Shown here: positions 17,387-63,557 of the stretch, in pieces
How positions within the stretch are numbered: position 1 is the first letter of the stretch
Layout of the letters: the number at the start of each line of letters is the position of its first letter
DNA from: Thermoplasmata archaeon
Lineage (GTDB): Archaea > Thermoplasmatota > Thermoplasmata > RBG-16-68-12 > JAGMCJ01
DNA: 64,000 nt
Reading direction: 5' to 3'
NCBI GenBank assembly: GCA_046761045.1
Contig: JBHIFJ010000001.1
Span: forward strand, 89,785-153,784
Program-made: the position numbers and the translations under genes
Notes under the pieces: generated by a model
Database searches by the model: none
What the model saw: the letters and a program-made list of their open reading frames with translations, nothing else
What the model was told of the DNA's origin: nothing

Positions 17387-17475
17387 GCCGCCGTAGCTTA
17401 GTCTGGTGGAGCTCCCGGCTGTTAATCGCCGAAGCAGAAACCGGAGGGTCACCGGTTCAAATCCGGTCGGCGGCG
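17387..17475 (+). tRNA. tRNA-Asn (anticodon GUU) with 15-nt intron (17425-17439) at canonical 37/38 position
   Basis: Manual fold: acceptor GCCGCCG/CGGCGGC, D-arm GCTT..GGAGC, anticodon stem CCCGG/CCGGA, loop CU-GUU-A, T-arm ACCGG-TTCAAAT-CCGGT; intron ATCGCCGAAGCAGAA. Confidence 0.8.
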
Positions 17476-17480
17476 CTCTC

Positions 17481-35061: not shown

Positions 35062-35652
35062 GTGAATGGGACCGAAGAGGAATCAATGAAAGTGAAGATT
35101 TGCCTGGTTGGTGACTTCCAGGTCGGGAAGACCAGCCTCATTAGGCGCTTCGTCCTTGACGAGTTCGATGACAGGTACCTCGAGACGATCGGCACGAAGG
35201 TGACGAAGAAGACCGTCAATGTCGACCATCCGGGCGGAGAGGACTTGCTGCGCGTCAAGCTGCTCATATGGGATATAATGGGCCGCAAGGAGTTCGGCGA
35301 CCTTCTGCGCGATGCCTACTTCTACGGTGCGAAGGGCATAATCGCCGTCTGCGACCTGACGAGACCCGAGACGGTCGAGAGCGTGCGGGAATGGATAGAT
35401 TCCGTCGTCCGCGTGACGGGCAGGGTCCCAATCCACATTCTTGGGAACAAGGCGGACCTCGAGCGCAAGGTTGACGAGCAGGCAATCGCGGACCTCGCAT
35501 CATCATACGACTCGCCGCATCATCTGACCAGCGCCAAGACGGGTTTGAACGTCGAGCTGGCTTTCGCAGATATGGCTCTGAGAACCTCAGCTCAGTACTA
35601 CGGTCTGCCGGAGGTTGGGTCGGGGGAGAGGGCTACCGCGCCGGTGGATTGA
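35062..35652 (+). CDS. Ras-superfamily small GTPase (Rab/Ras-like)
   Basis: G1 GDFQVGKTS, switch II WDIMGRKEF (DxxG, no catalytic Gln), G4 NKAD, G5 TSAKTG. Confidence 0.85.
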   Translation: MNGTEEESMKVKICLVGDFQVGKTSLIRRFVLDEFDDRYLETIGTKVTKKTVNVDHPGGEDLLRVKLLIWDIMGRKEFGDLLRDAYFYGAKGIIAVCDLTRPETVESVREWIDSVVRVTGRVPIHILGNKADLERKVDEQAIADLASSYDSPHHLTSAKTGLNVELAFADMALRTSAQYYGLPEVGSGERATAPVD

Positions 35653-38700: not shown

Positions 38701-39898
38701 CGTGAATAACCCGCCTGACGCACCCACCGATCTTGCTGTGGATGGCTTCTCGTTACCGCCTAATGTGACGCACATCCGCGTGAGCGAGCCAGCACTGAGC
38801 TGGAACTACTCAGACCCAGACGGCGACGCGCAGACTGAGTTCGAGGTCGAGGTTCAGAATGACACTGGAGTTCCGATTTGGACCTACTCGGAGTTGAGCG
38901 CTTCTGAAACAGTGGACTACAACGCCGACGGGACGGCTCCGGCATTCGTGCCCGGAGACTCGTACTCCTTCCGTGTGAGGACGAAAGACGCAAGCATGTG
39001 GAGTGCTTGGTCAGCGCTGCTGCAGTTCGAGCTGAGCGCACCACCACCGGCTCCAATACTGACTGACCCAGCGGATGCCGCCACGGGTGTGTCATTCACT
39101 CCGACTCTCAACTGGACCTCCGGCGGCGACGATCCCAACGGAGATTCTGTGACCTACCACTGGTACCTCGACAACGAGACATCAGTGACTTATCCATGGA
39201 TTGAGAACGACACCACAGCCCTCTTGACGGCCACGGTGAGCACACAACTCGATGGTTCCACGACATACTACTGGAGGGTCTGTGCTGAAGACGGATGGGA
39301 GCAGCCCCAGTGCTCGGCAATCCGGTCCTTCACGACGCAGGTGCCAGCAAACATTGCGCCAACGGCGAACGCCGGGGGACCATACGAGGTGACCGAGGAC
39401 ACGCAGCTGACCCTCAGCGGTTCTGGAACAGACACAGATGGCACGATAGTCCTGTATGAATGGGACTTCGAGGACGATGGTACATGGGATTCCAGCAGTT
39501 CCACCTCGGGCACTGCAACGCATACCTACACCGAGCCAGGGACATACACAGCCCGATTGAGGGTGACAGACGACGACGGAGCCACTGGCGAGGCCACGGC
39601 GACGGTGACAGTGAAGGAGAAGGCACCCGCTCCTGACTTCCTAGGCGAGTATTGGTGGATACTCCTCATCATCATAATCATCGTAATCCTACTCCTCATC
39701 CTCCTCGCAAAGAGGAAGAAGCCTGAGGAGGAAGGGATCGAGGAGGAGGAAATGGAAGTGCCCGCCGTGGAGGAGGAAGTCCCTCCCGAAGAGGAGGAAG
39801 CGGCCGAGGAAAAGGCCGAGATGAAGGAGTGCCCCAACTGCGGAACCGTCCTTGCAGCGGACGATACAGAGTGCTTCATGTGTGGGGCAAAGGTCTAG
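35792..39898 (+). CDS. Giant secreted surface protein (1368 aa): signal peptide, ~10 FN3-like domains, C-terminal PKD domain, TM helix, acidic Glu-rich cytoplasmic tail and terminal Cys4 zinc ribbon
   Basis: N-term VVMVFVLGLFSPMSQHARA; recurrent YYWRVRAxDxxxYSAWS and FHTNC motifs; PKD EWDFEDDGTWD...TARLRVTDDDG; TM WWILLIIIIIVILLLILLA KRKKP; EEEGIEEEEMEVP...; CPNCG...CFMCG. Confidence 0.85.
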   Translation: MSENRKVSISAIVVMVFVLGLFSPMSQHARAAIPVPHNLYGHAWDVNGVNYTPGFYISAWIDGVEYGWNLTFDDLLDPGWPNFNYSSKIDIDTAGNQVTIPSDPDTPWVKEGGDQGVDDIMYVEGDMTELVTGGMGSNIFENTTVWQTFVSEYIDLTMATIQPPALPKINNVVTQPGDMGTQYIYIYGPEGTPMDEFYLEKNDGVLHNAATQIFLSGTISETKYFYVDLGAVDYLDPNGDELKLLWENPGGPGAPFGGMDVVVDRVEYNATSGGTHFGEPDNTIMPDAIAPGMGLDIHRIPFAGDDTNDCSVDFLSGTEPGRPPTAPYPLKVEVLGVANGPGETIDHVVNRVNPLLEWTHNDPDVPPLPPFGYKVEIANDSAFSDIRWASYQTSSGAESENYGGPYLTEGACFYYRARTKDAYDYGPWANTTVCMNTPPPVPMTIYPHNETVDPINLSMNWSLVSDAEGDTVTYHVQADEDSAFSLPPFFTDESVPVNESTGKNYNAQTTYYWRVRAYDGYEYSAWSNDPWYWWFNTTNPPLEPWVEFMAVEGWYAPSMEADHITNRVNPTFNWTFMDGNLGDNQQAFNAELRDQPSGGGNLIWFTTGGAAEQVTYDGAPLSECTNYYFRVEVQDDSPSQLWSLTWEEIAFHTNCVPTVPVLNLPANQSALNENMNEQVFWIASSDDDPFDFISYEWVVDTECPAVAPYFASGSTTNTFSDPFDTTGMGPTTFYWTVRANDTWEYSAWAGCYEFDVLQPNERPLAATNLAVDGFTAAPEITHLLNLLPTFTWTFNDPDPGDTQGGRHVEVNLGPGGANNIWWSNTTDPAESVDYPPTAQPLVMCQDYYFRVLTRDAGGLWAADTDWAEILFHTNCEPDVPVLADPQDGNVTTPDAAQTLTWQPSSDGDSDTVTYNLEVSTDSSMTPIVHQDTTTTTSSSFTTTSGECYWWRVNGTDGYVYTAWSTVWSFCVNNPPDAPTDLAVDGFSLPPNVTHIRVSEPALSWNYSDPDGDAQTEFEVEVQNDTGVPIWTYSELSASETVDYNADGTAPAFVPGDSYSFRVRTKDASMWSAWSALLQFELSAPPPAPILTDPADAATGVSFTPTLNWTSGGDDPNGDSVTYHWYLDNETSVTYPWIENDTTALLTATVSTQLDGSTTYYWRVCAEDGWEQPQCSAIRSFTTQVPANIAPTANAGGPYEVTEDTQLTLSGSGTDTDGTIVLYEWDFEDDGTWDSSSSTSGTATHTYTEPGTYTARLRVTDDDGATGEATATVTVKEKAPAPDFLGEYWWILLIIIIIVILLLILLAKRKKPEEEGIEEEEMEVPAVEEEVPPEEEEAAEEKAEMKECPNCGTVLAADDTECFMCGAKV

Positions 39899-51752: not shown

Positions 51753-53651
51753 ATGTGTGGGGGCCTCTGCCGATTGAAAGCCTCAGCTGCTTGCTTTGCG
51801 ATTATCCTCTCGATTCCGGTCATTGCCTTTACCGTCCCGTCCATCGGACATGAGAATGACCAGCATTTCGCTCACGTAATGAAATCCCAACCGGCCTTGG
51901 GCTCGGAGGAGAACTACTCTGTCGCTATAGGCGATGGACACATGCATTCTCTGCATTCGAGCGGGGCAACATCAATCCATGAGAACTCAGATGTGGCGAA
52001 GTCCAGGGGTCTCAATTGGATATTTCCCACCGACCACAATGTCGTGCCGCCGCAGTCCGAATGCGATGCTGAAAACAGCGAGAGCTTCAGATGTTTGGTG
52101 GGTGAAGAGGTGACAACTTGGGACGGTCACATTCTAGGATGGGGCCTGAAGGAACTCGTATCCTGGAACCTGGGACCCGATAGAGACATGAACGATATCT
52201 TCGAGGATATCCACGTTCAAGGCGGACTTGCTGTACTGGCGCATCCCATGGCCCCAGACGCGCCGGATCGCTACCAGTATTTCGGTGTCTATGAGGACTT
52301 TGACGGGTTGGAGGTCTATCACGGCTATGGCGGGTTAAATGCAGCGTTTCCCACCACGATGGACGGCGACGCACTCACCAAATGGGAGGAGTATCTGAAT
52401 GCGGGCATCAGGAAGACGGCAGTCGGTGACAGCGATTGTCACGATGGCAACAACGTTTGGAACGAGGGGGACCTTCTGAATCTTCAGGGTGCGATAGGCT
52501 TTCCCAGGAACGTCCTCCTGGTGAAGGAGTTCAGCCGGCAGGGGATACTGGAAGCAGTTTCCAAGGGGAGGCTCTATGTCACCGACGGTCCGGTTCTGAA
52601 CTTCACAATTGATGGTCACATCCTCAGCGAGACGATTCGATCCTCGGTTCCGGCAACGCTCAACGTGAGCGTATCCGGGTATGCCAACGAGTCCTCTCAG
52701 GTCAGGCTCATAAGAAATGGATCAGTCATAAGCTCCTGGTCAGTGGGAGCAGGCTGGTTCTCTGTTTCGGAATCCACGCTCGCCGACTCGGATTTCTGGT
52801 ACAGGACTGAGATCCGGACCTTCAACGGAGGGATATTCAAAGGGGAGACATACGTTGCCTTCACCAATCCAATTTTCTTCGATTTGGAACCGTATGATCT
52901 GCCTCCTGCCCCGCCCAAGAACCTGATGGCCGAGTTGAGCGGGAATGATGTCTTTCTCTCCTGGGACCCATCCACCTCGGCAGATGTGGACCACTATCAT
53001 ATATACGTATCGAATTCGTACGGCAACTTCAGCTTCCTCTATCCGGTCGCGAGGACAGCGGGCACCAACTGGACGCATCAAGGGGTGGGGGTAGGCAACA
53101 ACGAGGACTTCTTCTACATCGTGCGCGCAGTGGACAAGATGGGATATGAGGACAACAACACAAGAAAGGCAGCGAAGACCTCAAGGTTTCTGGCAAGCGG
53201 GAAGCATCTGATTTCCCTTCCTCTCGTTCCTGCTAATGATAGCCTCCACAGCATCCTTCAGACCGTCAGCCTCGACCGAGTGTGGGCCTATGAGTCCGGG
53301 CGGTGGGCGAAGTTCTCGAGCTTCAAGGACTACTCGGACCTGAGCTCCATGACGCACCTAGGCGGATACTGGCTTAACGTCACGCAGGACTCGTTTTTCA
53401 TTCTGGCGGGAGCCGTGCCAGAGGAGACAACCATCGATGTGCGAGAGGGCTGGAATCTTGTGAGTTTTCCGTCCTTCCTTGAGATGAGCGTCTCGGACGT
53501 TATGGCTAGCCTTCCGCTCAAGCGTGTTGAGGGACCATCTGGCGGGCCGCCGCACCATCTGAGGAGGCTCACAGCACTCGACAGTCTCCAGCCATTCCAG
53601 GGATACTGGTTCGAGGTCTCGGCGAACTCCACATGGATCGTCCCCGGCTAG
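51753..53651 (+). CDS. Secreted PHP-domain phosphoesterase with FN3 domain and tandem-duplicated C-terminal 'GWNLxSxP...GYWxEV' domain
   Basis: Signal peptide AACFAIILSIPVIAFTVP; PHP His motifs GDGHMHSLHS, VLAHP; FN3 (PPAPPKNLMA...WDPS..DVDHYHIYVS); C-terminal repeat shared with 53648-56110 and 57434-60745 proteins. Confidence 0.75.
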   Translation: MCGGLCRLKASAACFAIILSIPVIAFTVPSIGHENDQHFAHVMKSQPALGSEENYSVAIGDGHMHSLHSSGATSIHENSDVAKSRGLNWIFPTDHNVVPPQSECDAENSESFRCLVGEEVTTWDGHILGWGLKELVSWNLGPDRDMNDIFEDIHVQGGLAVLAHPMAPDAPDRYQYFGVYEDFDGLEVYHGYGGLNAAFPTTMDGDALTKWEEYLNAGIRKTAVGDSDCHDGNNVWNEGDLLNLQGAIGFPRNVLLVKEFSRQGILEAVSKGRLYVTDGPVLNFTIDGHILSETIRSSVPATLNVSVSGYANESSQVRLIRNGSVISSWSVGAGWFSVSESTLADSDFWYRTEIRTFNGGIFKGETYVAFTNPIFFDLEPYDLPPAPPKNLMAELSGNDVFLSWDPSTSADVDHYHIYVSNSYGNFSFLYPVARTAGTNWTHQGVGVGNNEDFFYIVRAVDKMGYEDNNTRKAAKTSRFLASGKHLISLPLVPANDSLHSILQTVSLDRVWAYESGRWAKFSSFKDYSDLSSMTHLGGYWLNVTQDSFFILAGAVPEETTIDVREGWNLVSFPSFLEMSVSDVMASLPLKRVEGPSGGPPHHLRRLTALDSLQPFQGYWFEVSANSTWIVPG

Positions 53652-56110
53652 TTGTTGACAATCCACCAACATTCCTGCGGAACCTCTATCCACAGCCCCA
53701 TTCCGGGAGAGAGAACGTCCGTGGGCGAGAGCACCCTCAAATAGTGTGGAGGAGCGAGCGGGTCGAAGCCCTCAATCCTCGTCCATGGAACCCCCGCCAA
53801 GACATCCCCAATCGTCCGATTCGCGAACGAGGGATAGCCTACGAGGTTCCATCCGTACCTGAGCTTCACCCAGGTCGTTGGCACCTTCACGCCCCAGACA
53901 ACGAGGTCCCCCTCAGCAACCATGTGAATCCAGAATCCCATCCGGTTGTTGATCTCCCTAAGCTCGTTCAGAGACGGATCTCTTCCCGGTCTGTACGTCC
54001 TCCATTCGTCTCCAGTCAGGGTCGTGTTGTAGTATCTGACCATGTCATACTTCCCATCGATGGAGGCGAGCACGGATTCGATGCTGCGGTTTGGTCCGAC
54101 GAAAGGGAGGGAAATGAGATTCCATCCGGCATTGATGTGCATGGTACCGACAAGCGTGAGGTTCGAGCAAGCAATGTTGTTGGACTCATCCGTCTCAAGG
54201 TACTTATCGAGTGGGTCAACCTGTACGCAGAACTCATGCTCGCCCGTTGTCATGTTCGCGGTCGAGAAGGGAATCGACGTTGAGTTGGCGGAGTGATGGA
54301 AGACATCCATGCTGTTGTTCCCTAGCAGGGTCCCGCCGCTCCTCGGGTTGCCTTGATAGAAGGAGACGGTGACATCAGTGGTGGGATACTCTCCAAGATT
54401 TGAGACATTGGCTGTGATATTGAGGTCCTTGCCCGCGACCACTGGATATGGCGAGAAACCAACGGTTGTTTCATTCACGCTCAGGTCTGGGAGATAGCTT
54501 GCATTGTAGGGGGCCAGCTTTGGGTCACCGACTATGGCGTCCATCCAGCTGAGGCCGATCTCGGACGCCATGGAGAAGCTCTCAGCGAGGGTGTATCCCT
54601 CTGTATAGGCCTTGAAGAGGATGTTAGGATGGGCCACGGCGCCCAGGTAGGGCTCGTACACATAGCCCTTGAGTCCCGTGACGCCATCTCTCAGGAGGTC
54701 GGCGACGAGCGACTGGCCGTAGGAAGTTCCATAGATGAAGCTCCTCCCGCCAGTGGAGACGTAGGTCTCCGCGAGGGCGCCGGGAATCCATTCGTTGTGC
54801 GGCTTTATGTCCACAAGCCTCACGTCATCGAAGACAACCGTTCCTCTGGACTCGGAGAGAACGGCCGATATCTGTATTCTCGTCTCGTTCCTGGGCTCGA
54901 GTATGACTTGGCCGAGAGAGACATAATTGGCGGTTGTTCCGGTCCTTGCGGAGCCGTTCAGAACGGTCACAGGACTTCCCGTTTCGTTCAGGACCCTTAT
55001 CTGGAGGAAGGCGCCGTGATCCGGAGAAACGCCTGAGAGGTTCGCATAGCCGCGGATGTGATACCGCCTGTCAGGGGCGACGGTGACGTTCTGTGTCACC
55101 GCTGCGAGATTCGCATCAGCACTGGTTCGCGTGATCTGCACGGACCAGCTTCCGGTGCGAACATCTGTGCTGTTTCTCGATAGAATCGCAGTGCCCGAGC
55201 TGTCCTCATAGGTCCAATCATCGGGCACGCCATTCAGGTCAATGTCATCTTCGAAACCCGCGTTCTTGTTCTCTGGTACGTACCAGCTGCCGTCATTGCT
55301 TCCCCAACTCGTATACCCCGCAATGTCGGAGTGGTTCGTGAGAAATTCGTTCGTCTGATCGAGCATGACGTCAAAACCCTTCTGGCGCAGGATGAAATCA
55401 GCGTCTATCATCCAGTCGTTCCCAATCTTGTAGCCTCCACCCTTTCGCGGGTCCGTGTCCAAGAGGAATATGCCCCTTCTTCCAATGGCGAGTGTGGCTT
55501 TGTCTATCAGTGCAATCGCTTCCTCCTTTGTGAAGGCCGTGAGCCTGGTCACGATGTAGAAGTGATATTGCGCGTGCGAGAAAGGCTGCGATGAATTGAA
55601 GTAGGGGTTGGCAAGCCAGCGGAAGTTGCCAATGGAGCCAGAAAAGACATCGTTGATCAGCGCCAGTTCAGAATCGACCGAGGCGGAGTATTCCCAAGGT
55701 GAGTCGGAAACCTTCAGCGGGACTCCTTTCGTGGTCACGATGACATTTATCTTGTCGACTAAACCGTTGCTGATCATGAAGTTCTCAACCTGAGACCTGA
55801 GGTTGCCAAAGGTCGGGCGGTCGATGACCTCAGACTCCGTGATGGTCACGTTGCAGATCCTCTCCCAGGGTATGTTCCTCTGGGTCGCGAAGTAGTCCGC
55901 AATATCCATGGAAGTCTGCGAGTTCAGGTTTCGGATGACCATTACGTCGCTGTAGTTGACTATCTCGACGAACCTCTGCGAGAGCAGCGACATGGGTTGG
56001 TGGAGGGACCTGGAGAAAACTGGTTTTGTATCTGCCTCTTCCTGATTCAGGAAGGGAAGCATGAGAAGAATGGCTACGAGCAAGCAGAGCAATAACCTCT
56101 TCGAAGGCAT
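53648..56110 (-). CDS. Secreted putative hydrolase with central CBM-like beta-sandwich and tandem-duplicated C-terminal 'GWNLxSxP...GYWxEV' domain
   Basis: Start at ATG 56110 (MPSKRLLLCLLVAILLMLPFL signal peptide); CBM-like block GFEDDIDLNG...WSVQITRTS...VVFDDVRLVDI; C-terminal repeats. Confidence 0.75.
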   Translation of the reverse strand: MPSKRLLLCLLVAILLMLPFLNQEEADTKPVFSRSLHQPMSLLSQRFVEIVNYSDVMVIRNLNSQTSMDIADYFATQRNIPWERICNVTITESEVIDRPTFGNLRSQVENFMISNGLVDKINVIVTTKGVPLKVSDSPWEYSASVDSELALINDVFSGSIGNFRWLANPYFNSSQPFSHAQYHFYIVTRLTAFTKEEAIALIDKATLAIGRRGIFLLDTDPRKGGGYKIGNDWMIDADFILRQKGFDVMLDQTNEFLTNHSDIAGYTSWGSNDGSWYVPENKNAGFEDDIDLNGVPDDWTYEDSSGTAILSRNSTDVRTGSWSVQITRTSADANLAAVTQNVTVAPDRRYHIRGYANLSGVSPDHGAFLQIRVLNETGSPVTVLNGSARTGTTANYVSLGQVILEPRNETRIQISAVLSESRGTVVFDDVRLVDIKPHNEWIPGALAETYVSTGGRSFIYGTSYGQSLVADLLRDGVTGLKGYVYEPYLGAVAHPNILFKAYTEGYTLAESFSMASEIGLSWMDAIVGDPKLAPYNASYLPDLSVNETTVGFSPYPVVAGKDLNITANVSNLGEYPTTDVTVSFYQGNPRSGGTLLGNNSMDVFHHSANSTSIPFSTANMTTGEHEFCVQVDPLDKYLETDESNNIACSNLTLVGTMHINAGWNLISLPFVGPNRSIESVLASIDGKYDMVRYYNTTLTGDEWRTYRPGRDPSLNELREINNRMGFWIHMVAEGDLVVWGVKVPTTWVKLRYGWNLVGYPSFANRTIGDVLAGVPWTRIEGFDPLAPPHYLRVLSPTDVLSPGMGLWIEVPQECWWIVNN

Positions 56111-56163
56111 CTGGACCGCACCTAATCGCGGTGAAAAATGAATCTTCCACGTATTAACTCTTG

Positions 56164-56838
56164 CTATCGTCGAGACAGATCGCGCTCGACAGATACCGCC
56201 CTCGCGGCCATCCTCTCGGTCACCACTCTTTTCGCAAGGTCGTAGAACGCCCTCTCCACGTTGTCCCCCGTCTTCGCGCTGGCACGTATGCATGAGGTGC
56301 CATCGCTGAGAACGGACCAACCAGGTTCTGGCGTGGCGCTCTCAATCTCCGACTTGTTGATTACAACCTGAATCGGGACGTCACCAACGAGATCCTTGAC
56401 CACGGCAATCCAGTCTCCCACGCTTGCTATGGTCTTGTCATCCGTGGCATCGCAGACGGCGAGGACACCCTGCGTTCCATACAGATAGTCGCGCTTGAGG
56501 ATGGAATCCTTGCCTCTCATGCCGGCGATGTCCCATAGGATCATGTCGACCCTGATTTCCGCTCCGTTCCAAGGAATGACGAGGGTCTTCTTGGCTATCT
56601 TGGCACCAACCGTCTTGAGGTACTCGTCGTCGAACTGGTCCTTGACGTACCGGCGAACCAGGCTGGTCTTGCCTACGGCAGGATCACCCACCAAACATAT
56701 CTTCAGCTTGATAATCAGATTTTCCGGCGTGTCTCTCCCTCTTGCTGGTCGATTCTCCACTCCAAGGCCGTTCGCGTAAACCGGAACCACCCTGGAAATC
56801 TCCTTATGGATATTTAAATCTGGCGGTTTGATGTTCAT
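56164..56838 (-). CDS. Ras-superfamily small GTPase (paralog of 35062-35652)
   Basis: G1 GDPAVGKTS, WDIAGMRGK, NKSE, ASAKTG; ATG (rc 56836-56838) overlaps TAA of upstream gene (TAATG). Confidence 0.85.
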   Translation of the reverse strand: MNIKPPDLNIHKEISRVVPVYANGLGVENRPARGRDTPENLIIKLKICLVGDPAVGKTSLVRRYVKDQFDDEYLKTVGAKIAKKTLVIPWNGAEIRVDMILWDIAGMRGKDSILKRDYLYGTQGVLAVCDATDDKTIASVGDWIAVVKDLVGDVPIQVVINKSEIESATPEPGWSVLSDGTSCIRASAKTGDNVERAFYDLAKRVVTERMAARAVSVERDLSRR

Positions 56839-57380
56839 TACGCATAGCCCAGACCGAGCCCTTCCTTGAAGATAGTCCTGTCTAGACTCCTTCTTAGCTT
56901 GGCGTCCAGCAGCCTCTGCTTTTCTGAGAGCTGCCCTTTCCAGCCGAATTGGAGAGGCCCCTGGATCATCCCTGGAGAGTCTATCTCGCTCAGTCGCTTG
57001 GGCTCTGTGCTCAGCACACTGTCTATCGCATGCGTGAACTCTTCCCGCTCGAACTCCCCTCCGAGGAATCTGTCCAGGATGTCCGAAGGCAATGGTCTGA
57101 ATCCATAACCGGGCAAGGAAGCCGAGGCGACCTTGCGGGCCTCTGTCCTTCCTCCGATTCTGGCACCTATTGCTTTCGGATTCGGTCTGTAGAGACTGTC
57201 GACCTTTATCTGCCACAGCTCGTCCTCGGTTGAGATGAGGAAGTCTGAGTATCCTGACTTGCTCTCCTTGACGAGGACGGACCAGCCCTTTGGGTTCCTC
57301 TCGTACTTGTCGGCCAGCCTCTTCAGAATCTCTTCTCTGGTTCTGATCTCTGCCATGCCTCTGGAATATATTGAACTCAA
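56838..57380 (-). CDS. Hypothetical 180-aa protein translationally coupled upstream of small GTPase (candidate GTPase partner)
   Basis: Protein-like ORF; no recognisable family by eye. Confidence 0.55.
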   Translation of the reverse strand: MSSIYSRGMAEIRTREEILKRLADKYERNPKGWSVLVKESKSGYSDFLISTEDELWQIKVDSLYRPNPKAIGARIGGRTEARKVASASLPGYGFRPLPSDILDRFLGGEFEREEFTHAIDSVLSTEPKRLSEIDSPGMIQGPLQFGWKGQLSEKQRLLDAKLRRSLDRTIFKEGLGLGYA

Positions 57381-57433
57381 TGCTAGATAATGGTTTCCAT
57401 CAGGGACAATTTAAATACGAAGGTGGCATTGAT

Positions 57434-60400
57434 ATGGCCATCAAGAGGAGGCTTTATATGGCCGTGGGCAGCAAGTTGGCCTGCATTCTGGTTGTGGTGT
57501 CCTTTCTTCTCCTTGGCGTTGTCGTGACTGGCGCAAATACCGTCTTTTCCTCCCCTCCCGACGAGGAACCTACCGCCTATGATCCAGTCATCGCGTCAGT
57601 GGTGGCAAACGTGTCGAGGTCGCAGCTTACTGACTATCTGTGGAGCCTGCAAAACTTCACAACCAGGTATGCGTATACCAACAACCTGAACTGGTCAGCG
57701 TCCTACATACTCGAGGAGTTCGGTTCGTGCCCATTCATGACCAATGAGTCTCAATACTTCGTATATTCTGGCAGGACGTATAGGAACGTCTACGGGGTCC
57801 TTCCCGGGCTCAACCCCGTCAACAACACCGTCTACATCGTGTCTGGGCACTACGACTCATACAGCACCGTCGACCCGATGAATGAGGCTCCTGGGGCGGA
57901 TGATGATGCCAGCGGGACCTCGGTCGCCATGGAGGCGGCCAGGGTTCTGTGCGACTACAAGTTCAACTCGACCATAATATTCGCCGGATGGACCGCTGAG
58001 GAGCTGGGTCTCATCGGCAGTGACCACTTCGCCAAGAAGGCGAGAGAGGCAGGTATGGACATAGGCATGGTCCTTCAGTTCGATATGGTCGGCTACGATC
58101 CGTCGGGCCTGCTGGGTCTGGACATTGCAGCCAACTCGCCCTCCGCATGGATATTGGACAAGTTCCTGGAGGCCAATATGGACTACTCGATAGGTCTCGA
58201 CCTGACGGACTACGTGACCTCTGGAGGGGGTGGAAGCGACCACGTGTCCTTCTGGCAGCAGGGTTACCCTGCCATGATGGGAATCGAGACCGTCTTCAAT
58301 GTGCCGAATTACCACAAGCCCACGGATACGATTGACAAGCTGAACATGGGCCTCGTCACCAAGACGGCACAGGTCGCAGTCGCCGTTCTTGCGGAAATCG
58401 CGGGCATCCACACTCCTGGTGTTGGAGCCATTTATCTCAACAGGACGTCATATTTGCTGACGGACGATATAGGGATAACCCTCTATGATACCGACCTCAA
58501 CGTGAATCCCGGAATTCAGGATTTCATCGATGTGGTTATCAACAGCACATCTGAGCCCACAGGTGAGCTGGTTCCACTCGTCGAGACAGGGCCGGACACG
58601 AACGTGTTCTTCGGAAGCATACTCTCGACGCCCGTCCCCGGTGTCCCAGGTTCCCTGACAGTTTCGCATGGTGATATGATTACAGCGACGTATACAGAGG
58701 TCTCCCCGCCTGGACTAAGACAGGCCAATGCCACTGCCGATGGTTTGCCTCCTGCGATCCGGAACGTAGCAGCAACTCCGGACGTGACCTCTGCCGTCAT
58801 AACATGGGAAACGGACGAAGTGGCGGACAGCGAGGTCTCTTACGGTCTCACAACAGCACTCGGAAGCGCGGAGTCCGACGATGCCGTGAAAGAGCAGCAC
58901 AGAATCATCCTCGATGGGCTGACCCCAGACACGAAGTACTACTTCGAGGTGGCTTCCACCGATATGGCCGGAAATCGCATCATGGAAGACAACGGCGGGC
59001 TGAAGTATTCCTTCAGGACCCTGCCTGGATACACGAAGGTCCCTGGATACGGATACGTCGGCTGGGTCAGGGACGAGGAGGCCACGGGCAACCATTTTAC
59101 AGATCCCGAGGTTCTCGTGGGACACAGCAACAGGCGTTGGCCGACCTACGATGTCGACTACCTAGGCGCGGCCCAGTTCCCAACGGACCCGATACCTATC
59201 GGCGCTTCCGTCACGAATGCCAAGGTTGAGTTCTATGGCAGTAGGTGGATATATGATGGCCAGGCTTCACAATGGAATCTCAGGCTACTCGATAGTGCCA
59301 TCGATCCCGGCTGGACGACGCATGCCTTCCCAGACATTGAGGCGGCCAGTGTGGAGGCCACGGTTCCTCCCACGCTCGCCAACTCGGACCTCGATGCTTG
59401 GCAGTGGAACACCTTCGAGTTCGACCCCTCCCAGCTCGGGCTACTGGAGTCCCATCTGCTCAATGGCAGAATATCCTTCAGGCTTGATGGCCCTCGATCT
59501 CCAGCAGTGACTCTCGGTGTCCTGTTTGCATGGAGGTCAGGTTACGAGGGCGGGTCGAGCTTTGCCACTCCCTACGCGCCGAGGCTGACGGTGGCATACA
59601 CCACGACGGGAGATCTCTCCGGGCCGCTCGTCACCTCGATTGGTTTGAGCCCCAACCCGACAGAGGGAAGGCCTCTCTCCAACCTCACCGCCACGGTGTC
59701 AGATCAATTCACAGGTGCGAATGATGTTCTCGCGGCCGAGTACTTCGTGGACTTCGACCCCGGGGAGGGGAAGGGAGTGCCAATGGCCGCAACCGACGGC
59801 TCGCTGGATTCTGTGGTTGAGGATGTGAAGTATTCAATCGACGTGAGCGGTGTCTCAACTGGTCTGCACACCCTCTTCGTGAGGGGCATGGATTCCGTGG
59901 GCAACTGGGGACCCGTGCAGAGTATCGTGCTTAACGTGACGCAGGGTGACACGATACCTCCACTTCCAGCTGCGAACGTGACGGCAAGTCTGGAAGGGGC
60001 CTCCCTCGAGGATCTGAACATAACCTGGAACCTCTCTCCAGATGACGGCCTCGACGTGGCGAACTATGCCATTTACAGAGGTTCCGCGTACGACAACGGT
60101 GGTCAGGGCTACTCCTTCCTTGCGAGTCTTCCTCCGGGTTCGAGTAACTACCTCGATGCAGGTGCAGGACGCAACGACTCGAGTGACTACTACTATGTTG
60201 TCTGTTCCAACGACACCAGGGGCAATTGCGGAATGAGCGAGAGCCAGGGCGGGAAGAAGGTTCTGAATCTTCCTTCGGGTGAGCATCTTGTCTCGGTGCC
60301 CTTCCTTCAATCGAGCGCGGAATTTTGGAAGGACGTGTCGATGGCCTCGTACAGCTCAATCAGGGCGTACGACCCAACCTTCTCGTCGTCCGGATGGAGG

Positions 60401-60745
60401 ACCTATGCTCCATTCAGGCATGTGGACACGCTCACGACGGTCGATTATTCCGTCGGGATATGGGTCAACATCACATCCAATTCGCAGCTGATTCTCGCAG
60501 GCTCGGTCTTGCCCCAGTTCACGATTCAGTTGAAGGCAGGGTGGAATCTCGTGGGCTTTCCTTCTCCCACGTCCAGGTCGGTGAGCAATGCCTTGGCGGG
60601 AGTTCCCTATCTCTCTGTCGAAGGATACGATACAGGCTCTCCGCCGTATTTTCTAAGAGAATTCACCCCGAGCGAGTTCCTTGATCCAGGCATGGGATAC
60701 TGGATAGAAGTTGCCTCCGATGCAGTCTGGACGATTGCGAACTAG
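57434..60745 (+). CDS. Secreted M28-family zinc aminopeptidase with FN3/Ig-like domains and tandem-duplicated C-terminal 'GWNLxSxP...GYWxEV' domain
   Basis: Start ATG 57434 with GAAGGTGG SD; signal peptide LACILVVVSFLLLGVVVTG; M28 motifs HYDSY...DDDASGTSVAMEAARVL...FAGWTAEELGLIGS; FN3 (ITWETDEVADSEVSYG). Confidence 0.8.
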   Translation: MAIKRRLYMAVGSKLACILVVVSFLLLGVVVTGANTVFSSPPDEEPTAYDPVIASVVANVSRSQLTDYLWSLQNFTTRYAYTNNLNWSASYILEEFGSCPFMTNESQYFVYSGRTYRNVYGVLPGLNPVNNTVYIVSGHYDSYSTVDPMNEAPGADDDASGTSVAMEAARVLCDYKFNSTIIFAGWTAEELGLIGSDHFAKKAREAGMDIGMVLQFDMVGYDPSGLLGLDIAANSPSAWILDKFLEANMDYSIGLDLTDYVTSGGGGSDHVSFWQQGYPAMMGIETVFNVPNYHKPTDTIDKLNMGLVTKTAQVAVAVLAEIAGIHTPGVGAIYLNRTSYLLTDDIGITLYDTDLNVNPGIQDFIDVVINSTSEPTGELVPLVETGPDTNVFFGSILSTPVPGVPGSLTVSHGDMITATYTEVSPPGLRQANATADGLPPAIRNVAATPDVTSAVITWETDEVADSEVSYGLTTALGSAESDDAVKEQHRIILDGLTPDTKYYFEVASTDMAGNRIMEDNGGLKYSFRTLPGYTKVPGYGYVGWVRDEEATGNHFTDPEVLVGHSNRRWPTYDVDYLGAAQFPTDPIPIGASVTNAKVEFYGSRWIYDGQASQWNLRLLDSAIDPGWTTHAFPDIEAASVEATVPPTLANSDLDAWQWNTFEFDPSQLGLLESHLLNGRISFRLDGPRSPAVTLGVLFAWRSGYEGGSSFATPYAPRLTVAYTTTGDLSGPLVTSIGLSPNPTEGRPLSNLTATVSDQFTGANDVLAAEYFVDFDPGEGKGVPMAATDGSLDSVVEDVKYSIDVSGVSTGLHTLFVRGMDSVGNWGPVQSIVLNVTQGDTIPPLPAANVTASLEGASLEDLNITWNLSPDDGLDVANYAIYRGSAYDNGGQGYSFLASLPPGSSNYLDAGAGRNDSSDYYYVVCSNDTRGNCGMSESQGGKKVLNLPSGEHLVSVPFLQSSAEFWKDVSMASYSSIRAYDPTFSSSGWRTYAPFRHVDTLTTVDYSVGIWVNITSNSQLILAGSVLPQFTIQLKAGWNLVGFPSPTSRSVSNALAGVPYLSVEGYDTGSPPYFLREFTPSEFLDPGMGYWIEVASDAVWTIAN

Positions 60746-62022
60746 GCAACGGCCTCAGGGGCTTCAGGCGCGGCCTCGATTTCTTCAGCAGTCCTCTTCA
60801 GTGTCGGTGCAAGTTCGCCAAGATAGAGCCCGATGAACGAGTCCTGTTTCCCAATCCAGTCGGCCATCATCACTATGGGCATCATCACCGTGATGAACGG
60901 ATAGTAGAGAGTCTCATCTTCATGCGCGCCTGTCATAATCTCGAAAGCCCTTGAGGCGTATCTTGCGAGCCCGTACAGGTGGCTGGAATAGTCGCCTGCG
61001 GTCAGGCGTGGATTGTATCCCTGCAGGGTCTTGAGGTTCGAGATCTCCTCCTCCCTCAGTGATATGAGCGAGAGGTTCGCAATCCCCTCCTTGAGGTCCT
61101 GGTAGATGTGCACGATGTTGTTCAGATACACGATTACCACGTCGTAGTAATACCATCCCTCTAGGAGGGCATCGATGTGGCCGATGTCGAGTGGCTTGTC
61201 GCAGAAGGACATGTCAATAAGATTGTACCTCGTCCCCCCGCTGACGTAGTTTGCCAGGCGGTCGTACCACCCAAGGTCATCCGCGGGGGCATAGAACTTC
61301 GAGGCGATCTTTCTTATCTTGTTGGTGTCCAGGGAGGTTTCCTTCTGAAACATGGTCAATGCCTGACCCAACGTCACTCTCTCGTCCAGAACCTCCATCT
61401 GATAGAAGAACTCGTGCCCGTGAGGCGATTCCACGAAGATCTTGTTGAAGTTGGCGGTGATATTTGTCATCAGATCGAAAAGGCTCAGCTGCTCCTGCTT
61501 CATCATCGATATCAGCTTTTTCTTGAAAGCGTTTATCTTGAAGTCCGGGTCGGTCATCGAGGACAGAACATGGTGGTAGAGGTCCTTTGCTTCGATGTAC
61601 GAGTATTTCTGCGTGTCTATCAGGTCATCCAGAATTCCTGTCTGGCATTTGTACAGGATCTTCGCAATCATCGATTTTCTCAGGTTTTCCGACGACATGA
61701 ACCTGTAGTACTTCTGAGATATCATGGTGGCGCCGGCTGCGAACCTCAGTGTCTGGACATAGTTCCATGTGTCGCCCGTGTTGTCCAGCACTGGGCTGTT
61801 GCTCATTCCAGGTGGTCTGAGTGCTATTGTCCTTCCTCCGTTCGATTCTCTCAGTCTCGATAGATTGCGGCGCACTTCGTTGATGTGCCATTCGAGCCTT
61901 GACTTGCTGATTCCTAGATCTAGGTTGTCGAGGAGGCTCTCTGCATAACCTCCAAGCTTGGTAACCATGTTCGACAGCACGTCGATGTCCTCCGAGCTGA
62001 GCTCGACTGTTCTCCTTGCCAT
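60742..62022 (-). CDS. Isoprenoid-synthase-fold protein (terpene/prenyl synthase-like) with DDxxD motif
   Basis: GILDDLIDTQ aspartate-rich motif, all-alpha-like composition; C-terminal Ala/Pro/Glu tail. Confidence 0.45.
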   Translation of the reverse strand: MARRTVELSSEDIDVLSNMVTKLGGYAESLLDNLDLGISKSRLEWHINEVRRNLSRLRESNGGRTIALRPPGMSNSPVLDNTGDTWNYVQTLRFAAGATMISQKYYRFMSSENLRKSMIAKILYKCQTGILDDLIDTQKYSYIEAKDLYHHVLSSMTDPDFKINAFKKKLISMMKQEQLSLFDLMTNITANFNKIFVESPHGHEFFYQMEVLDERVTLGQALTMFQKETSLDTNKIRKIASKFYAPADDLGWYDRLANYVSGGTRYNLIDMSFCDKPLDIGHIDALLEGWYYYDVVIVYLNNIVHIYQDLKEGIANLSLISLREEEISNLKTLQGYNPRLTAGDYSSHLYGLARYASRAFEIMTGAHEDETLYYPFITVMMPIVMMADWIGKQDSFIGLYLGELAPTLKRTAEEIEAAPEAPEAVA

Positions 62023-62165
62023 AAAGTGGAACTCTCCCAGGACAGCCTCAGGGTGCAAGATTCGAATGGCAACGGATTAATATTCTTTTGAGAAAATCAA
62101 AATTGATTATCTATTTCGAGATTGAGAACGTCTCGCCCTCGCTCCATCTTGCCAGAATTATCATT

Positions 62166-63557
62166 ATGGATAACGACAACGACATCATTTTTAAGCCGCG
62201 AAATGGGTGGAAAGACGACCAGAAGCTAAGAGATGGGGGTAGTCAGATACTCCAATACATCAGCGCCTTTGTTGCCCTGACAATGTCAGCTGTCATAGTG
62301 ATAGCGCTGCTCAGGCAGAGAACAATGAAGGCCTTTCACAAGACGATTCTCATAATATCCATTCTCTTCCTCGTCTGCGCTATTTCTGCTCACCTCTTCA
62401 TATATACGGCGGTTGCCCAGACGGACTTCAGTAGTTTCGTCACTGTAAGTAAGAAGATACAAGCAACATTTGACCTTCTGATGGGAATAATGGCGGGCGC
62501 CTTCGCTGTCGTCATCGCCAACCCCGAGATGATGGGCGCGAGGGATCTTGGCAGATATCTCCGCAGGGAGTTCCCAAGCGCATACATCTTCTACCTTATC
62601 ATCATGACCGGAGCCATAATCTCCACCATAATCGCACCGGTGGAGGTGGTGTATGAGGGTGGGAGCACCTTCACATTCACCTTCCCTCTCTGGTTTATCG
62701 CGATGCTGGCCATCGCTTCGATTGCGACGGTCCTTTTCATACCCTGCAAGCTGATTAGCTACCTGATGAGGACAAAACTGCCGAAATCCGTGGTCTTCAA
62801 CACCTACCTCATCCTGATTGGCATGGTCTCATACACATTATCCGAGCTGTTCTTTGAAGTCGTGCTGCCCAGTCAGTCCATCGACCTCAGAGGCATCGGG
62901 TTCGTGTTCGGGATCTTGATGCTCGGACTTGTGGCCTACGCTGTGAGGGGTCCGAGCTACCTTCAGGAGCTGGTCGTCCCGGTTTCCGAGGCGAATCTGG
63001 GTACACAGAGGAGGTTTGAGCTTCACGACGGGCAGAGCTATCTCATTGTCGACACGAGTCCCAATCTGAGCTTTGAGGTCTTCAGAGACCTCGTCACCCA
63101 TGGATATCAGGGTCTCTGCATCACACGGCTCCCTCCGAGGCGGGTGAGAAGTGAGTTCTCCCTGGAGAAGACCCCTGTTCTATGGCTGAGCAGAGTTTCC
63201 GGTGACAAGGACACGATACGACCCTGGCCATTGGAGGGCATCTCTAGAGCTGTCGAGCACTTCGTTTCGACCGGCGAGAAGACGGTCGTTCTTCTCGACG
63301 GCCTAGAGTACATCATCTCTCACAACGATTTCCAGTCCTCGCTTACTTTGCTGCATGACCTCAATGAAAGGATGGCTATGAAGGACTCCATACTCATCCT
63401 GCCTCTCGATCCCGAGGCGCTTGAGGAAAAGGAGTTCGCCCTCATCAGAAGGGATCTAGTCGAATTGGAACCCTCTGCCGTGCGAAACATCATGAGAGAG
63501 GTGATCATGGAAGAGGATTTCACGAAGGGATTGACGAAGGAAAAGGCTGAGACCTAA
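62166..63557 (+). CDS. Multi-TM membrane protein with C-terminal cytoplasmic DUF835-like domain
   Basis: 7-8 TM helices then ..GLCITRLPP...VLWLS...VVLLDGLEYIISHNDF..LLHDLNE.. pattern. Confidence 0.6.
   Translation: MDNDNDIIFKPRNGWKDDQKLRDGGSQILQYISAFVALTMSAVIVIALLRQRTMKAFHKTILIISILFLVCAISAHLFIYTAVAQTDFSSFVTVSKKIQATFDLLMGIMAGAFAVVIANPEMMGARDLGRYLRREFPSAYIFYLIIMTGAIISTIIAPVEVVYEGGSTFTFTFPLWFIAMLAIASIATVLFIPCKLISYLMRTKLPKSVVFNTYLILIGMVSYTLSELFFEVVLPSQSIDLRGIGFVFGILMLGLVAYAVRGPSYLQELVVPVSEANLGTQRRFELHDGQSYLIVDTSPNLSFEVFRDLVTHGYQGLCITRLPPRRVRSEFSLEKTPVLWLSRVSGDKDTIRPWPLEGISRAVEHFVSTGEKTVVLLDGLEYIISHNDFQSSLTLLHDLNERMAMKDSILILPLDPEALEEKEFALIRRDLVELEPSAVRNIMREVIMEEDFTKGLTKEKAET

What the first reader, a model, noticed from the sequence alone, without database searches (positions are those of the whole stretch)
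51753..60745. Three adjacent secreted hydrolases share a tandem-duplicated, unclassified C-terminal ~70-aa domain
Three different enzymes end in the same two-copy module: the PHP phosphoesterase (51753-53651), the enzyme with a CBM-like domain (53648-56110), and the M28 aminopeptidase (57434-60745). The module signature is G-W-N-L-[VI]-[SG]-[FYL]-P ... [VL]..[LA] ... G-[YLF]-W-[IFL]-[EN]-V ... W-[IT]-[IV]. There is no TM helix and no PGF-CTERM-like sorting signal, and each protein terminates right after the second copy. The conservation across unrelated catalytic N-terminal domains suggests a dedicated cell-surface attachment or sorting module. Its role may be analogous (not shown to be homologous) to bacterial GW or S-layer-binding modules. 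I do not recognise it as a named family.
Basis: seen in the sequence. Interest (0 to 1): 0.78.

Follow-up and report, generated by a model that had tools for sequence, protein, structure and literature searches.

The report
Unnamed C-terminal two-repeat surface-protein module
Three neighbouring exported enzymes of an uncultured Thermoplasmata archaeon end in the same two-repeat domain, which belongs to a very large but unnamed family that sits where other microbes put cell-surface anchors, so it is probably a new kind of surface-retention module.

Summary
Genes A (51753-53651, +), B (53648-56110, -) and C (57434-60745, +) each end, with no residues after it, in a 155-165 aa module of two homologous repeats (82-91 aa and 73-74 aa). 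The three C-termini align at 33-34% identity (94-125 bits). Family profiles of repeat 1 and repeat 2 match each other (hhalign 99.7%, E 4e-27).

The family is large: 23,185 clusters at 50% identity. It is almost always a pair at the extreme C-terminus, on at least 50 different passenger families. Most members come from Thermoplasmata and Methanomassiliicoccales MAGs, with several copies per MAG; a few are attributed to bacteria.

Homologues of B's passenger (TIGR03790) end either in this module, in a T9SS C-terminal domain, in a TM helix with a charged tail, or in a dockerin. That places the module in the surface anchoring/sorting slot.

Best reading (confidence about 0.45): non-covalent cell-surface retention. 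The binding partner is unknown and the function is inferred, not shown. I class it as a new variant of a known kind.

The parts
51753..53651 (+). Gene A, 632 aa: exported CehA/McbA-type PHP metallohydrolase + fn3-like spacer + C-terminal didomain
   Evidence: ORF. NCBIfam NF038032 CehA_McbA_metalo, E 1.6e-49, aa 60-377. Logan gene call of 632 aa.
51765..51851 (+). A: N-terminal hydrophobic segment (aa 5-33), a signal peptide or signal anchor
   Evidence: Kyte-Doolittle scan. Cleavage was not predicted by any tool.
51930..52883 (+). A: CehA/McbA PHP metallohydrolase domain (aa 60-377)
52911..53183 (+). A: fn3-like spacer before the didomain (aa 387-477)
   Evidence: Pfam fn3, E 0.0011, 19.5 bits, below the cut-off. 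The A-C alignment extends into it.
53184..53429 (+). A: didomain repeat 1 (82 aa; GKHLISLP variant of the motif)
53430..53648 (+). A: didomain repeat 2 (73 aa; GWNLVSFP ... GYWFEV ... WIV), followed directly by the stop codon
53648..56110 (-). Gene B, 820 aa: TIGR03790-family protein + CBM_4_9-like region + CARDB + C-terminal didomain
   Evidence: TIGR03790, E 8.8e-55. CARDB, E 2.3e-9. Identical to P0265.
56033..56110 (-). B: N-terminal hydrophobic segment (aa 1-26)
55292..55948 (-). B: best TIGR03790 stretch (aa 55-273)
54815..55267 (-). B: weak CBM_4_9 / BppA-like region (aa 282-432), below the cut-off
   Evidence: E 0.0017 and 0.014.
54173..54490 (-). B: CARDB Ig-like spacer (aa 541-646)
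53873..54145 (-). B: didomain repeat 1 (91 aa; GWNLISLP ... MGFWIHM)
   Evidence: AlphaFold model.
53651..53872 (-). B: didomain repeat 2 (74 aa; GWNLVGYP ... GLWIEV ... WWIV), followed directly by the stop codon
57434..60745 (+). Gene C, 1103 aa: M28 aminopeptidase + Ig/fn3-like region + C-terminal didomain
   Evidence: Peptidase_M28, E 5.3e-37. Logan gene call of 1103 aa.
57449..57553 (+). C: N-terminal hydrophobic segment (aa 6-40)
57785..58384 (+). C: Peptidase_M28 domain (aa 118-317)
58757..58972 (+). C: Pur_ac_phosph_N / fn3-like domain (aa 442-513)
60260..60520 (+). C: didomain repeat 1 (87 aa; GEHLVSVP variant of the motif)
60521..60742 (+). C: didomain repeat 2 (74 aa; GWNLVGFP ... 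GYWIEV ... WTI), followed directly by the stop codon

Best explanation
The three genes encode exported proteins. Each has an N-terminal signal peptide or signal anchor, then a catalytic or passenger region, then Ig-like spacers, then a portable C-terminal 'GWNL didomain'.

The didomain consists of two homologous beta-rich repeats that fold into one compact unit of about 160 aa. Most likely it keeps the exported protein at the cell surface by binding non-covalently to a component of the archaeal envelope. That component could be a surface glycoprotein, a glycan layer or a partner protein. The enzyme would then be displayed on its Ig-like spacers instead of diffusing away.

Shown here:
- homology of the three modules and of the two repeats;
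- a compact, confidently predicted fold;
- the strict C-terminal position and independence from the passenger domain;
- many paralogues per genome, often clustered;
- positional equivalence with known anchors in homologues of one passenger.

Inferred:
- export;
- the binding itself;
- the identity of the partner;
- that the module stays on the mature protein.
For: 1. Same module on three unrelated passengers in 9 kb.

2. Family-wide pattern.
- 23,185 clusters at 50% identity match at E <= 1e-3; 2,464 match at E <= 1e-30.
- Of the 160 family proteins fetched by that point (mainly the best hits), 152 have exactly two repeats and 143 end within 5 aa of the module.
- 91 of 101 module-bearing ORFs in 80 genomic loci end within 5 aa of it.

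3. Passenger diversity: 50 Pfam families in 74 members. These include NosD/beta-helix, BNR, PKD, S8, metallophosphatase, Kelch and lectin-like domains. Cyclophilin, cohesin, C25 and CAP appear in other members. This breadth argues for a generic localisation role rather than targeting of one substrate.

4. Copy number: 6-8 loci per MAG among only the best 80 loci, and 16 of 80 loci carry two or more module genes.

5. Choice of anchor. Of 120 homologues of B's TIGR03790 passenger:
- 50 end in the didomain (Thermoplasmata);
- about 45 end in the T9SS CTD PF18962; the two of these that carry an organism name are from Bacteroidetes and Ignavibacteria MAGs;
- about 10 end in a TM helix with a charged tail;
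- one ends in a dockerin.
All these alternatives are surface-retention or sorting devices.

6. Architecture. The module follows Ig-like spacers (fn3 in A and C, CARDB in B), the usual enzyme-stalk-anchor order. Small cohesin + didomain proteins mirror cohesin + SLH anchoring scaffoldins.

7. Other large surface proteins in the same window use a C-terminal TM helix instead.

8. In B orthologues the module evolves at the rate of the CARDB spacer, which is slower than neutral but faster than the enzyme core.

9. The AlphaFold model is confident and compact: pLDDT 94.4, pTM 0.87.
Against: - No binding partner or ligand is identified, and no experiment exists.
- The family is also attributed to bacteria with very different envelopes: Anaerolineae and Cloacimonadota MAGs. 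This is awkward for a ligand specific to one envelope type.
- Some members carry the didomain followed by a linker and a TM helix (P0053, P0055, P0090, P0112, P0063). In those proteins it is not needed for anchoring.
- Stand-alone secreted didomains (P0006, P0105) and internal or multi-pair forms (P0014, P0017, P0019, P0049) exist. These fit a general binding or assembly domain at least as well.
- The module is acidic (median pI 4.3), unlike modules that bind anionic wall polymers.
- If the N-terminal hydrophobic segments are uncleaved anchors, the didomain would sit at the end distal to the membrane.
- The most conserved residues lie in beta-strands, so they are probably structural. No obvious ligand site emerges.
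Confidence: 0.45

Rival explanations
1. Lectin- or CBM-like targeting module. The didomain binds an environmental polymer or particle (detrital polysaccharide, glycoprotein, another cell) and brings the attached enzyme to its substrate, rather than tethering it to the producer cell.
For: - The module is Trp-rich (5.1% W), acidic and beta-rich.
- Many passengers are beta-helix/NosD-like or BNR sialidase-like, and so may act on glycans.
- Multi-copy, internal and stand-alone forms are typical of lectins and CBMs.
- The distribution across archaea and bacteria of similar habitats fits a shared external ligand.
Against: - The passengers act on unrelated substrates: aminopeptidase, subtilase, PHP and metallophosphoesterases, cyclophilin, cohesin, CAP.
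- The near-obligatory position at the extreme C-terminus as exactly one pair is unusual for CBMs.
- The same slot holds anchors in homologues of B's passenger.
- No CBM or lectin model or fold matches significantly.
Confidence: 0.2
2. Homotypic or heterotypic docking module. Didomains bind each other, or a dedicated partner protein, to assemble multi-enzyme complexes or a heterogeneous protein coat. This would resemble cohesin-dockerin systems. Multi-didomain and stand-alone didomain proteins would act as scaffolds or fillers.
For: - Gene clusters consist largely of didomain proteins. Examples are three genes in the window and six consecutive genes in L086, including the stand-alone P0105.
- Some proteins have 4-8 repeats.
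- A partner that travels with the module would explain the spread across archaea and bacteria.
- The weak fold resemblance of each repeat to RCK_C domains is compatible with pairwise packing, because RCK_C domains work as dimers (general knowledge).
Against: - No partner is identified, and no interface was modelled because no multimer prediction was available.
- The neighbour-gene survey found no recurrent didomain-free extracellular partner.
- The hypothesis overlaps with the best explanation instead of excluding it.
Confidence: 0.17
3. Export or sorting signal. The didomain is recognised by a dedicated secretion or processing machine and then removed or modified, as the T9SS CTD is.
For: - The position at the extreme C-terminus is strict.
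- T9SS CTDs occupy the same slot in bacterial homologues.
Against: - There is no homology to the T9SS CTD (hhalign probability 0.1-0.4%) or to any NCBIfam sorting-signal model.
- The host is an archaeon, which by inference has no outer membrane to cross. The proteins already have N-terminal Sec-type signals.
- A 160-aa two-domain fold is large for a tag.
- Stand-alone, internal and pre-TM forms have nothing to sort.
- No conserved candidate machinery gene lies nearby.
Confidence: 0.1

Closest known systems
T9SS C-terminal sorting domain (Por_Secre_tail, PF18962 / TIGR04183)
   Same: It is a beta-rich domain at the extreme C-terminus of many unrelated secreted proteins, with many paralogues per genome. 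It occupies exactly the same slot in homologues of the TIGR03790 passenger.
   Different: - No sequence or profile similarity.
- The T9SS CTD is a single domain of about 80 aa, whereas this is a fixed pair of about 160 aa.
- The host is an archaeon, which by inference has no outer membrane or T9SS.
- Stand-alone and internal copies of the didomain exist.
Dockerin (PF00404) and the cohesin-dockerin system
   Same: It is a C-terminal duplicated module that positions diverse enzymes by non-covalent docking, and it occurs in both archaea and bacteria. One TIGR03790 homologue carries a dockerin in this slot. Some didomain proteins carry cohesins.
   Different: Dockerins are Ca-binding helical repeats of about 70 aa in total (general knowledge). 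The didomain is beta-rich, about 160 aa, has no match to the dockerin model, and no partner is known.
SLH and GW cell-wall-binding repeats
   Same: They are repeated non-covalent anchoring modules at the termini of secreted enzymes. Cohesin + didomain proteins parallel cohesin + SLH scaffoldins.
   Different: - No HMM match.
- SLH domains are helical triplets, and GW modules are basic SH3-like domains that bind lipoteichoic acid (general knowledge).
- The didomain is acidic (pI 4.3), and its fold matches neither.
Archaeal C-terminal anchors: TM helix with charged tail, and PGF-CTERM/archaeosortase signals
   Same: They are alternative C-terminal endings of the same classes of surface protein in the same organisms. 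Window proteins 1303-5340 and 35792-39898 and the archaeal TIGR03790 homologues P0329-P0338 are examples.
   Different: The didomain has no hydrophobic helix and no PGF-type motif or model match. In some proteins it precedes such a helix.
RCK_C / TrkA_C fold (PF02080)

Membership tests
T9SS C-terminal sorting domain (PF18962 / TIGR04183) | Significant match to the family HMM or profile | tested here: not met
   No Pfam or NCBIfam hit on the module in A, B, C or in 38 diverse members. hhalign of repeat 1, repeat 2 and the didomain against an alignment of T9SS CTDs from TIGR03790 homologues gives probability 0.1-0.4%.
T9SS C-terminal sorting domain (PF18962 / TIGR04183) | Host has an outer membrane and T9SS machinery | not testable with these tools
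   Only 64 kb of the genome is available. The context is archaeal: a DUF835 gene, an archaeal-type ProRS, and best loci from Thermoplasmata MAGs.
GW module (SH3_8) or SLH domain | HMM match | tested here: not met
   No hit at E <= 1.
GW module (SH3_8) or SLH domain | SH3-like fold (GW) or helical fold (SLH), and a basic surface for GW | tested here: not met
PGF-CTERM / PGF-pre-PGF (TIGR04213) archaeosortase targets | C-terminal TM helix with a PGF motif, or a match to the pre-PGF model | tested here: not met
   There is no C-terminal hydrophobic segment and no NCBIfam hit.
Dockerin (PF00404) | Match to the dockerin HMM (duplicated Ca-binding repeat) | tested here: not met
   No hit. A true dockerin is recognised in homologue P0337, so the test works.
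CARDB / PPC / other Ig-like pre-peptidase domains | An HMM match that covers the repeats | tested here: not met
   CARDB matches only aa 541-646 of B, upstream of the module. Nothing covers aa 656-820. There is no PPC hit.
Carbohydrate-binding modules (CBM_4_9, CBM6/35) | An HMM or significant fold match on the module | tested here: not met
RCK_C / TrkA_C | Same fold and detectable sequence relationship | tested here: inconclusive
DUF1737 (PF08410) | Match at or above the gathering score over the whole domain | tested here: not met
   Ten of 38 members give sub-threshold hits (best E 5e-4). In the one hit inspected the match covers only 16 residues (GWNLVGYP...), scoring 12.5 bits against a cut-off of 24.
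GWNL didomain family (unnamed; defined here) | Two tandem homologous repeats with GWNL[IV][SG]xP ... G[FY]W[IV] motifs, ending the protein | tested here: met
   A, B and C each score 193-214 bits against the repeat HMM, with two domains each and a 0-residue tail. The family profile finds 23,185 clusters.

The most novel reading that the evidence does not exclude
The GWNL didomain could be the common 'foot' by which a heterogeneous set of enzymes and adhesin-like proteins assembles into the unordered exterior protein layer that replaces an S-layer in wall-less Thermoplasmata. The composition of that layer is currently unknown (PMC12448462). Production or placement of these proteins might be coupled to the Ras-like small GTPases that repeatedly sit next to them, often co-directionally upstream: window 56164-56838 upstream of B, 35062-35652 upstream of the surface protein at 35792-39898, and loci L061, L071, L074 and L076.
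Probability: 0.12. Interest if true: 0.8.

Novelty: new variant of a known kind. Interest (0 to 1): 0.6.

Why it matters
Uncultured Thermoplasmata are abundant degraders of detrital protein and polymers in sediments and digesters. How they keep their exo-enzymes at the cell is unknown, and many relatives lack an S-layer or wall.

This module marks a large part of their surface proteome. It appears on tens of thousands of proteins yet has no name, no model in Pfam or NCBIfam, and no solved structure.

Defining the family would:
- improve annotation of thousands of 'hypothetical' C-termini;
- give a handle for predicting the archaeal surface proteome;
- provide a testable candidate for a new envelope-anchoring or coat-assembly mechanism.

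Tried and rejected
- A literature search for the motif 'GWNL', for TIGR03790, and for Thermoplasmata surface anchors or cohesin-dockerin found nothing describing this domain.
- The Foldseek afdb50 library was unavailable. The AlphaFold database, the most informative comparison, was therefore not searched.
- Foldseek against viral structures gave one borderline hit, 'putative hemin binding protein [uncultured marine phage]' (TMq 0.63, E 3e-3). It probably contains the same fold but tells nothing about function.
- An exact-sequence look-up of protein A found nothing. The look-up of B (P0265) worked.
- The DUF1737 hits were rejected as a 16-residue motif coincidence.
- Homology to the T9SS CTD was rejected.
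- The idea that stand-alone didomains (P0006, P0105) are membrane-anchored receptors was dropped. Their hydrophobic segments end in AxA-type sites (VWA|Q, AWA|Q), so they look like cleavable signal peptides (my reading, no predictor was run).
- A neighbour-gene clustering across 80 loci, looking for a conserved partner or machinery gene, found only antisense shadow ORFs, housekeeping genes and the Ras-like GTPase.
- The cohesin-bearing neighbourhood L083 gave no dockerin partner.
- Conservation mapping showed only strand-core motifs and no evident ligand site.
- Recent duplication or gene conversion among the three modules was rejected because they share no DNA similarity.
Full report

The region holds three long ORFs:
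- A: 51753-53651 (+), 632 aa.
- B: 53648-56110 (-), 820 aa from the internal ATG.
- C: 57434-60745 (+), 1103 aa.

A Logan assembly of the same DNA (SRR29324585) calls genes of exactly these lengths, and P0265 is identical to B.

The last 200 residues of the three proteins align pairwise at 33-34% identity over 158-198 residues, scoring 94-125 bits. Each C-terminus splits into two repeats:
- A: 53184-53429 and 53430-53648.
- B: 53873-54145 and 53651-53872.
- C: 60260-60520 and 60521-60742.

The first repeats are 82-91 aa and the second 73-74 aa. First repeats resemble each other more than they resemble second repeats, so the duplication is older than the three paralogues and the pair moves as one unit. 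Within the window the repeat-1 to repeat-2 similarity is weak (23-33 bits). With family alignments it is unambiguous: hhalign probability 99.7%, E 4.3e-27 over 84 columns.

Further checks:
- An HMM of the six repeats finds no other copy in the six-frame translation of the window.
- Each protein stops immediately after the last strand.
- None has a C-terminal hydrophobic helix, and each has one N-terminal hydrophobic segment.
- The modules share no DNA-level similarity beyond the short motif, so this is old paralogy, not recent duplication.

- GWNL is degenerate in repeat 1 of A (GKHL) and of C (GEHL).
- B is a TIGR03790-family protein of unknown activity, not an established hydrolase.

**2. 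The passengers and the setting**

| Protein | Passenger domains |
|---|---|
| A | CehA/McbA-type PHP metallohydrolase (NF038032, E 1.6e-49) + sub-threshold fn3 |
| B | TIGR03790 (E 8.8e-55) + weak CBM_4_9-like region + CARDB (E 2.3e-9) |
| C | M28 peptidase (E 5.3e-37) + Pur_ac_phosph_N/fn3-like domain |

In all three the order is signal, enzyme, Ig-like spacer, didomain.

The window is archaeal chromosome:
- It carries a DUF835 gene, TldD/PmbA, an Lhr-type helicase, an archaeal-type ProRS, Trm5/TYW2 and a 90-nt tRNA-Asn.
- The best related loci are Thermoplasmata MAGs. L001 (K_1_bin.53) is 79% identical over the module.
- L001-L006 reproduce the convergent B/A gene arrangement.

Other giant surface proteins in the window (1303-5340 and 35792-39898) end instead in a TM helix with an acidic tail.

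**3. Is it a named family?**

No. The evidence is negative at every level I could test:
- Pfam-A and NCBIfam give no hit on the module in A, B or C at E <= 1.
- A per-member scan of 38 diverse didomains gave no NCBIfam hit. In Pfam it gave only sub-threshold hits to DUF1737 in 10 of 38 members. In the one hit inspected the match covers 16 residues around GWNLVGYP and scores 12.5 bits against a cut-off of 24. I treat these hits as a motif coincidence.
- phmmer and two profile searches against all PDB sequences found nothing.
- NCBI and JGI names for family members are 'hypothetical protein' or describe only the passenger.
- Literature searches found no description.

Caveat: InterPro member databases other than Pfam and NCBIfam, and the AlphaFold database (library unavailable), could not be searched.

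**4. Structure**

AlphaFold2 with a 14-sequence alignment gives a very confident model of B's didomain: mean pLDDT 94.4, pTM 0.87, and no residue below 70.
- Each repeat has the order beta-beta-alpha-beta-beta-beta-beta.
- The high pTM indicates that the two repeats pack in a fixed arrangement.
- Foldseek against the PDB finds nothing at E <= 0.001, with TM <= 0.29.

By these searches the fold has no solved counterpart.

**5. How big and how spread is the family?**

An exhaustive HMM search of 1.84 billion cluster representatives found 23,185 proteins at E <= 1e-3, 8,908 at E <= 1e-10 and 2,464 at E <= 1e-30.

Repeat number and position:
- Of the 160 family proteins fetched by then (mainly the best hits), 152 have exactly two repeats and 143 end within five residues of the module.
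- In 80 genomic loci, 91 of 101 module ORFs end within five residues of it.

Exceptions:
- multi-pair proteins: P0014 with 8 repeats; P0017, P0019 and P0049;
- forms with the didomain followed by a linker of about 60 aa and a TM helix with a basic tail: P0053, P0055, P0090, P0112, P0063;
- stand-alone proteins of signal peptide plus didomain: P0006, P0105.

Passengers are very diverse. Fifty Pfam families occur in 74 proteins: NosD/beta-helix in 27, BNR in 9, PKD in 6, and also S8, metallophosphatase, Kelch and lectin-like domains. Other members carry cyclophilin with C39, cohesin, C25 or CAP.

Taxonomy and copy number:
- The genome scan used the pattern GWNLVG[YF]P[SAT], which is biased towards close relatives. 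It confirmed 574 sites.
- The best 80 are almost all Thermoplasmata, Methanomassiliicoccales or Thermoplasmatota MAGs, with 6-8 loci per MAG for several of them.
- Sixteen of the 80 loci hold two or more module genes.
- A few members are attributed to bacterial MAGs: P0225 to Anaerolineae and P0014 to Cloacimonadota.
- One metagenomic contig carrying this second sequence type (L086) has six consecutive genes ending in the didomain. Its organism was not determined.

The module is acidic (median pI 4.3, net charge -11), Trp-rich (5.1%) and carries about two N-X-S/T sequons.

**6. What does it do?**

The most informative result is a choice-of-anchor comparison. I searched with B's passenger alone, aa 1-655, and classified the C-termini of the 120 best homologues.

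| C-terminal ending | Number | Source |
|---|---|---|
| GWNL didomain, tail 0-1 aa | 50 | Thermoplasmata orthologues |
| T9SS C-terminal domain (PF18962) | about 45 | proteins of about 560 aa; the two with organism names are from Bacteroidetes and Ignavibacteria MAGs |
| TM helix with charged tail | about 10 | PKD-bearing proteins of 1073-1119 aa |
| Dockerin | 1 | P0337 |

The rest are mostly fragments cut by contig ends or have other endings.

Every recognised alternative is a device that sorts a protein to the cell surface or holds it there. The didomain therefore occupies the anchor slot.

Other observations fit the same reading:
- the passenger independence, the paralogue number and the clustering described above;
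- the enzyme-stalk-module order;
- cohesin + didomain mini-proteins that mirror cohesin + SLH anchoring scaffoldins;
- a substitution rate in B orthologues like that of the CARDB spacer and faster than the enzyme core.

The best-supported reading is non-covalent surface retention of exported proteins. This is inference from position and analogy. No ligand, partner or localisation is shown.

**7. What argues against it, and the rivals**

Four facts complicate the best reading:
- Attribution to bacteria with different envelopes.
- Forms that already have a TM anchor after the didomain.
- Stand-alone and internal copies.
- The acidic charge.

Together they show that the didomain is an autonomous binding or assembly domain and not a mere terminal tag. 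They keep two rivals alive:
- A lectin/CBM-like module aimed at external polymers (0.20). The substrate diversity of the passengers and the fixed terminal position count against it.
- A homo- or heterotypic docking module that builds complexes or a protein coat (0.17). This overlaps with the best explanation.

A cleaved export signal of the T9SS type is unlikely (0.10):
- there is no homology to the CTD (hhalign 0.1-0.4%);
- the host is archaeal and the proteins have their own N-terminal signals;
- the module is large, and some copies have nothing to sort.

A neighbour-gene survey of 80 loci found no conserved partner or machinery gene. Conservation is concentrated in strand-core motifs, so no ligand site stands out.

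**8. Comparison with known systems**

- Functionally it most resembles the T9SS CTD, dockerins and SLH/GW modules: shared C-terminal modules that position diverse secreted proteins.
- It fails every membership test I could run for those families (see the membership table).
- Structurally the nearest thing is the RCK_C fold, at marginal significance.
- I therefore class it as a new variant of a known kind: an unnamed, structurally distinct family in the role of a C-terminal surface-protein module. This remains subject to the AFDB and InterPro checks that I could not run.

**9. Side observation followed part-way**

A Ras/Roc-type small GTPase (Pfam Ras, E 2.6e-23) and a conserved 172-aa ORF lie co-directionally just upstream of B. 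The order is ORF172 (57356-56838), then the GTPase (56838-56164), then a 53-bp gap before B.

A GTPase HMM finds homologues in other places:
- Homologous GTPase genes lie beside didomain genes in non-syntenic Thermoplasmata loci. L061, L071 and L076 each have one GTPase gene on either side of CAP-CARDB-didomain genes. L074 has one 1.3 kb away.
- A second GTPase in the window (35062-35652) lies 139 bp upstream of the TM-anchored surface-protein gene at 35792-39898.

Rab-like GTPases are known sporadically in Thermoplasmatales (PMC4915359). A recurrent linkage to surface-protein genes may be new, but I did not test it statistically.

Thermoplasmatales lack an S-layer and carry an unordered exterior protein layer of unknown composition (PMC12448462). 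This motivates the speculative 'common foot of a heterogeneous coat' reading.

**10. Verdict**

- This is a real, very large, unnamed domain family with a confidently predicted fold that has no solved counterpart.
- Its most likely role is surface retention or assembly, with the mechanism inferred rather than shown.
- Interest: 0.6.

Noticed in passing
window 56164-56838 (-), 56838-57356 (-), 35062-35652 (+); L076 3263-4123 and 8423-8971; L061, L071, L074: Ras/Roc-family small GTPase genes sit immediately next to genes for secreted or surface proteins, often co-directionally upstream. In the window the order is ORF172, GTPase, then B, and a second GTPase lies 139 bp upstream of the TM-anchored surface protein at 35792-39898. 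In L061, L071 and L076 one GTPase gene lies on either side of CAP-CARDB-didomain genes. This may be a functional linkage; it was not tested against chance.
   Followed up: partly
window 1303-5340 (+), 17481-21542 (-), 35792-39898 (+): Three further giant surface proteins (about 1350 aa; beta-helix/NosD, PKD, Big_5 and Rha78A-like Ig domains) lack the didomain. Two end in a TM helix with an acidic tail. The third of the three listed (35792-39898) also has a C-terminal zinc ribbon on the cytoplasmic side.
   Followed up: partly
P0053, P0090, P0112, P0063 (C-terminal 40 aa): In these proteins the didomain is followed by a Ser/Thr/Gly/Glu-rich linker and a conserved ending, SSGG[LS][ST]LF[AG]L..LLA.V.LA.R[RK]. 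It resembles an exosortase/archaeosortase-type sorting signal, but no NCBIfam model matched in the three that were scanned (P0063 was not).
   Followed up: partly
L086 1-19402 (JGI metagenome contig Ga0366840_1000586): Six consecutive genes all end in the didomain. They include a beta-helix protein, an S8 peptidase and a 266-aa stand-alone protein of signal peptide plus didomain (P0105). This looks like a dedicated gene cluster on a contig carrying the second sequence type of the family (didomains resembling the Anaerolineae-attributed P0225); the organism was not determined.
   Followed up: partly
window 17387-17476 (+): ARAGORN predicts a tRNA-Asn(GTT) of 90 nt, longer than a standard tRNA. 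It probably contains an archaeal intron.
   Followed up: no
window 60742-62058 (-) and 62088-63557 (+): Directly downstream of C lie a 438-aa ORF with no Pfam match and a DUF835 membrane protein. The same pair follows the C orthologue in the Logan contig.
   Followed up: no
BFVD entry A0A8D9C8P8: A 587-aa 'putative hemin binding protein' from an 'uncultured marine phage' is the only database structure that resembles the whole didomain (TMq 0.63). It may be a family member on a misassigned or viral contig.
   Followed up: no
L083 2-15210: A 343-aa cohesin + didomain protein (P0192) lies between two giant subtilase genes. One carries two cohesin stretches and the other Kelch propellers. No dockerin was seen.
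   Followed up: partly
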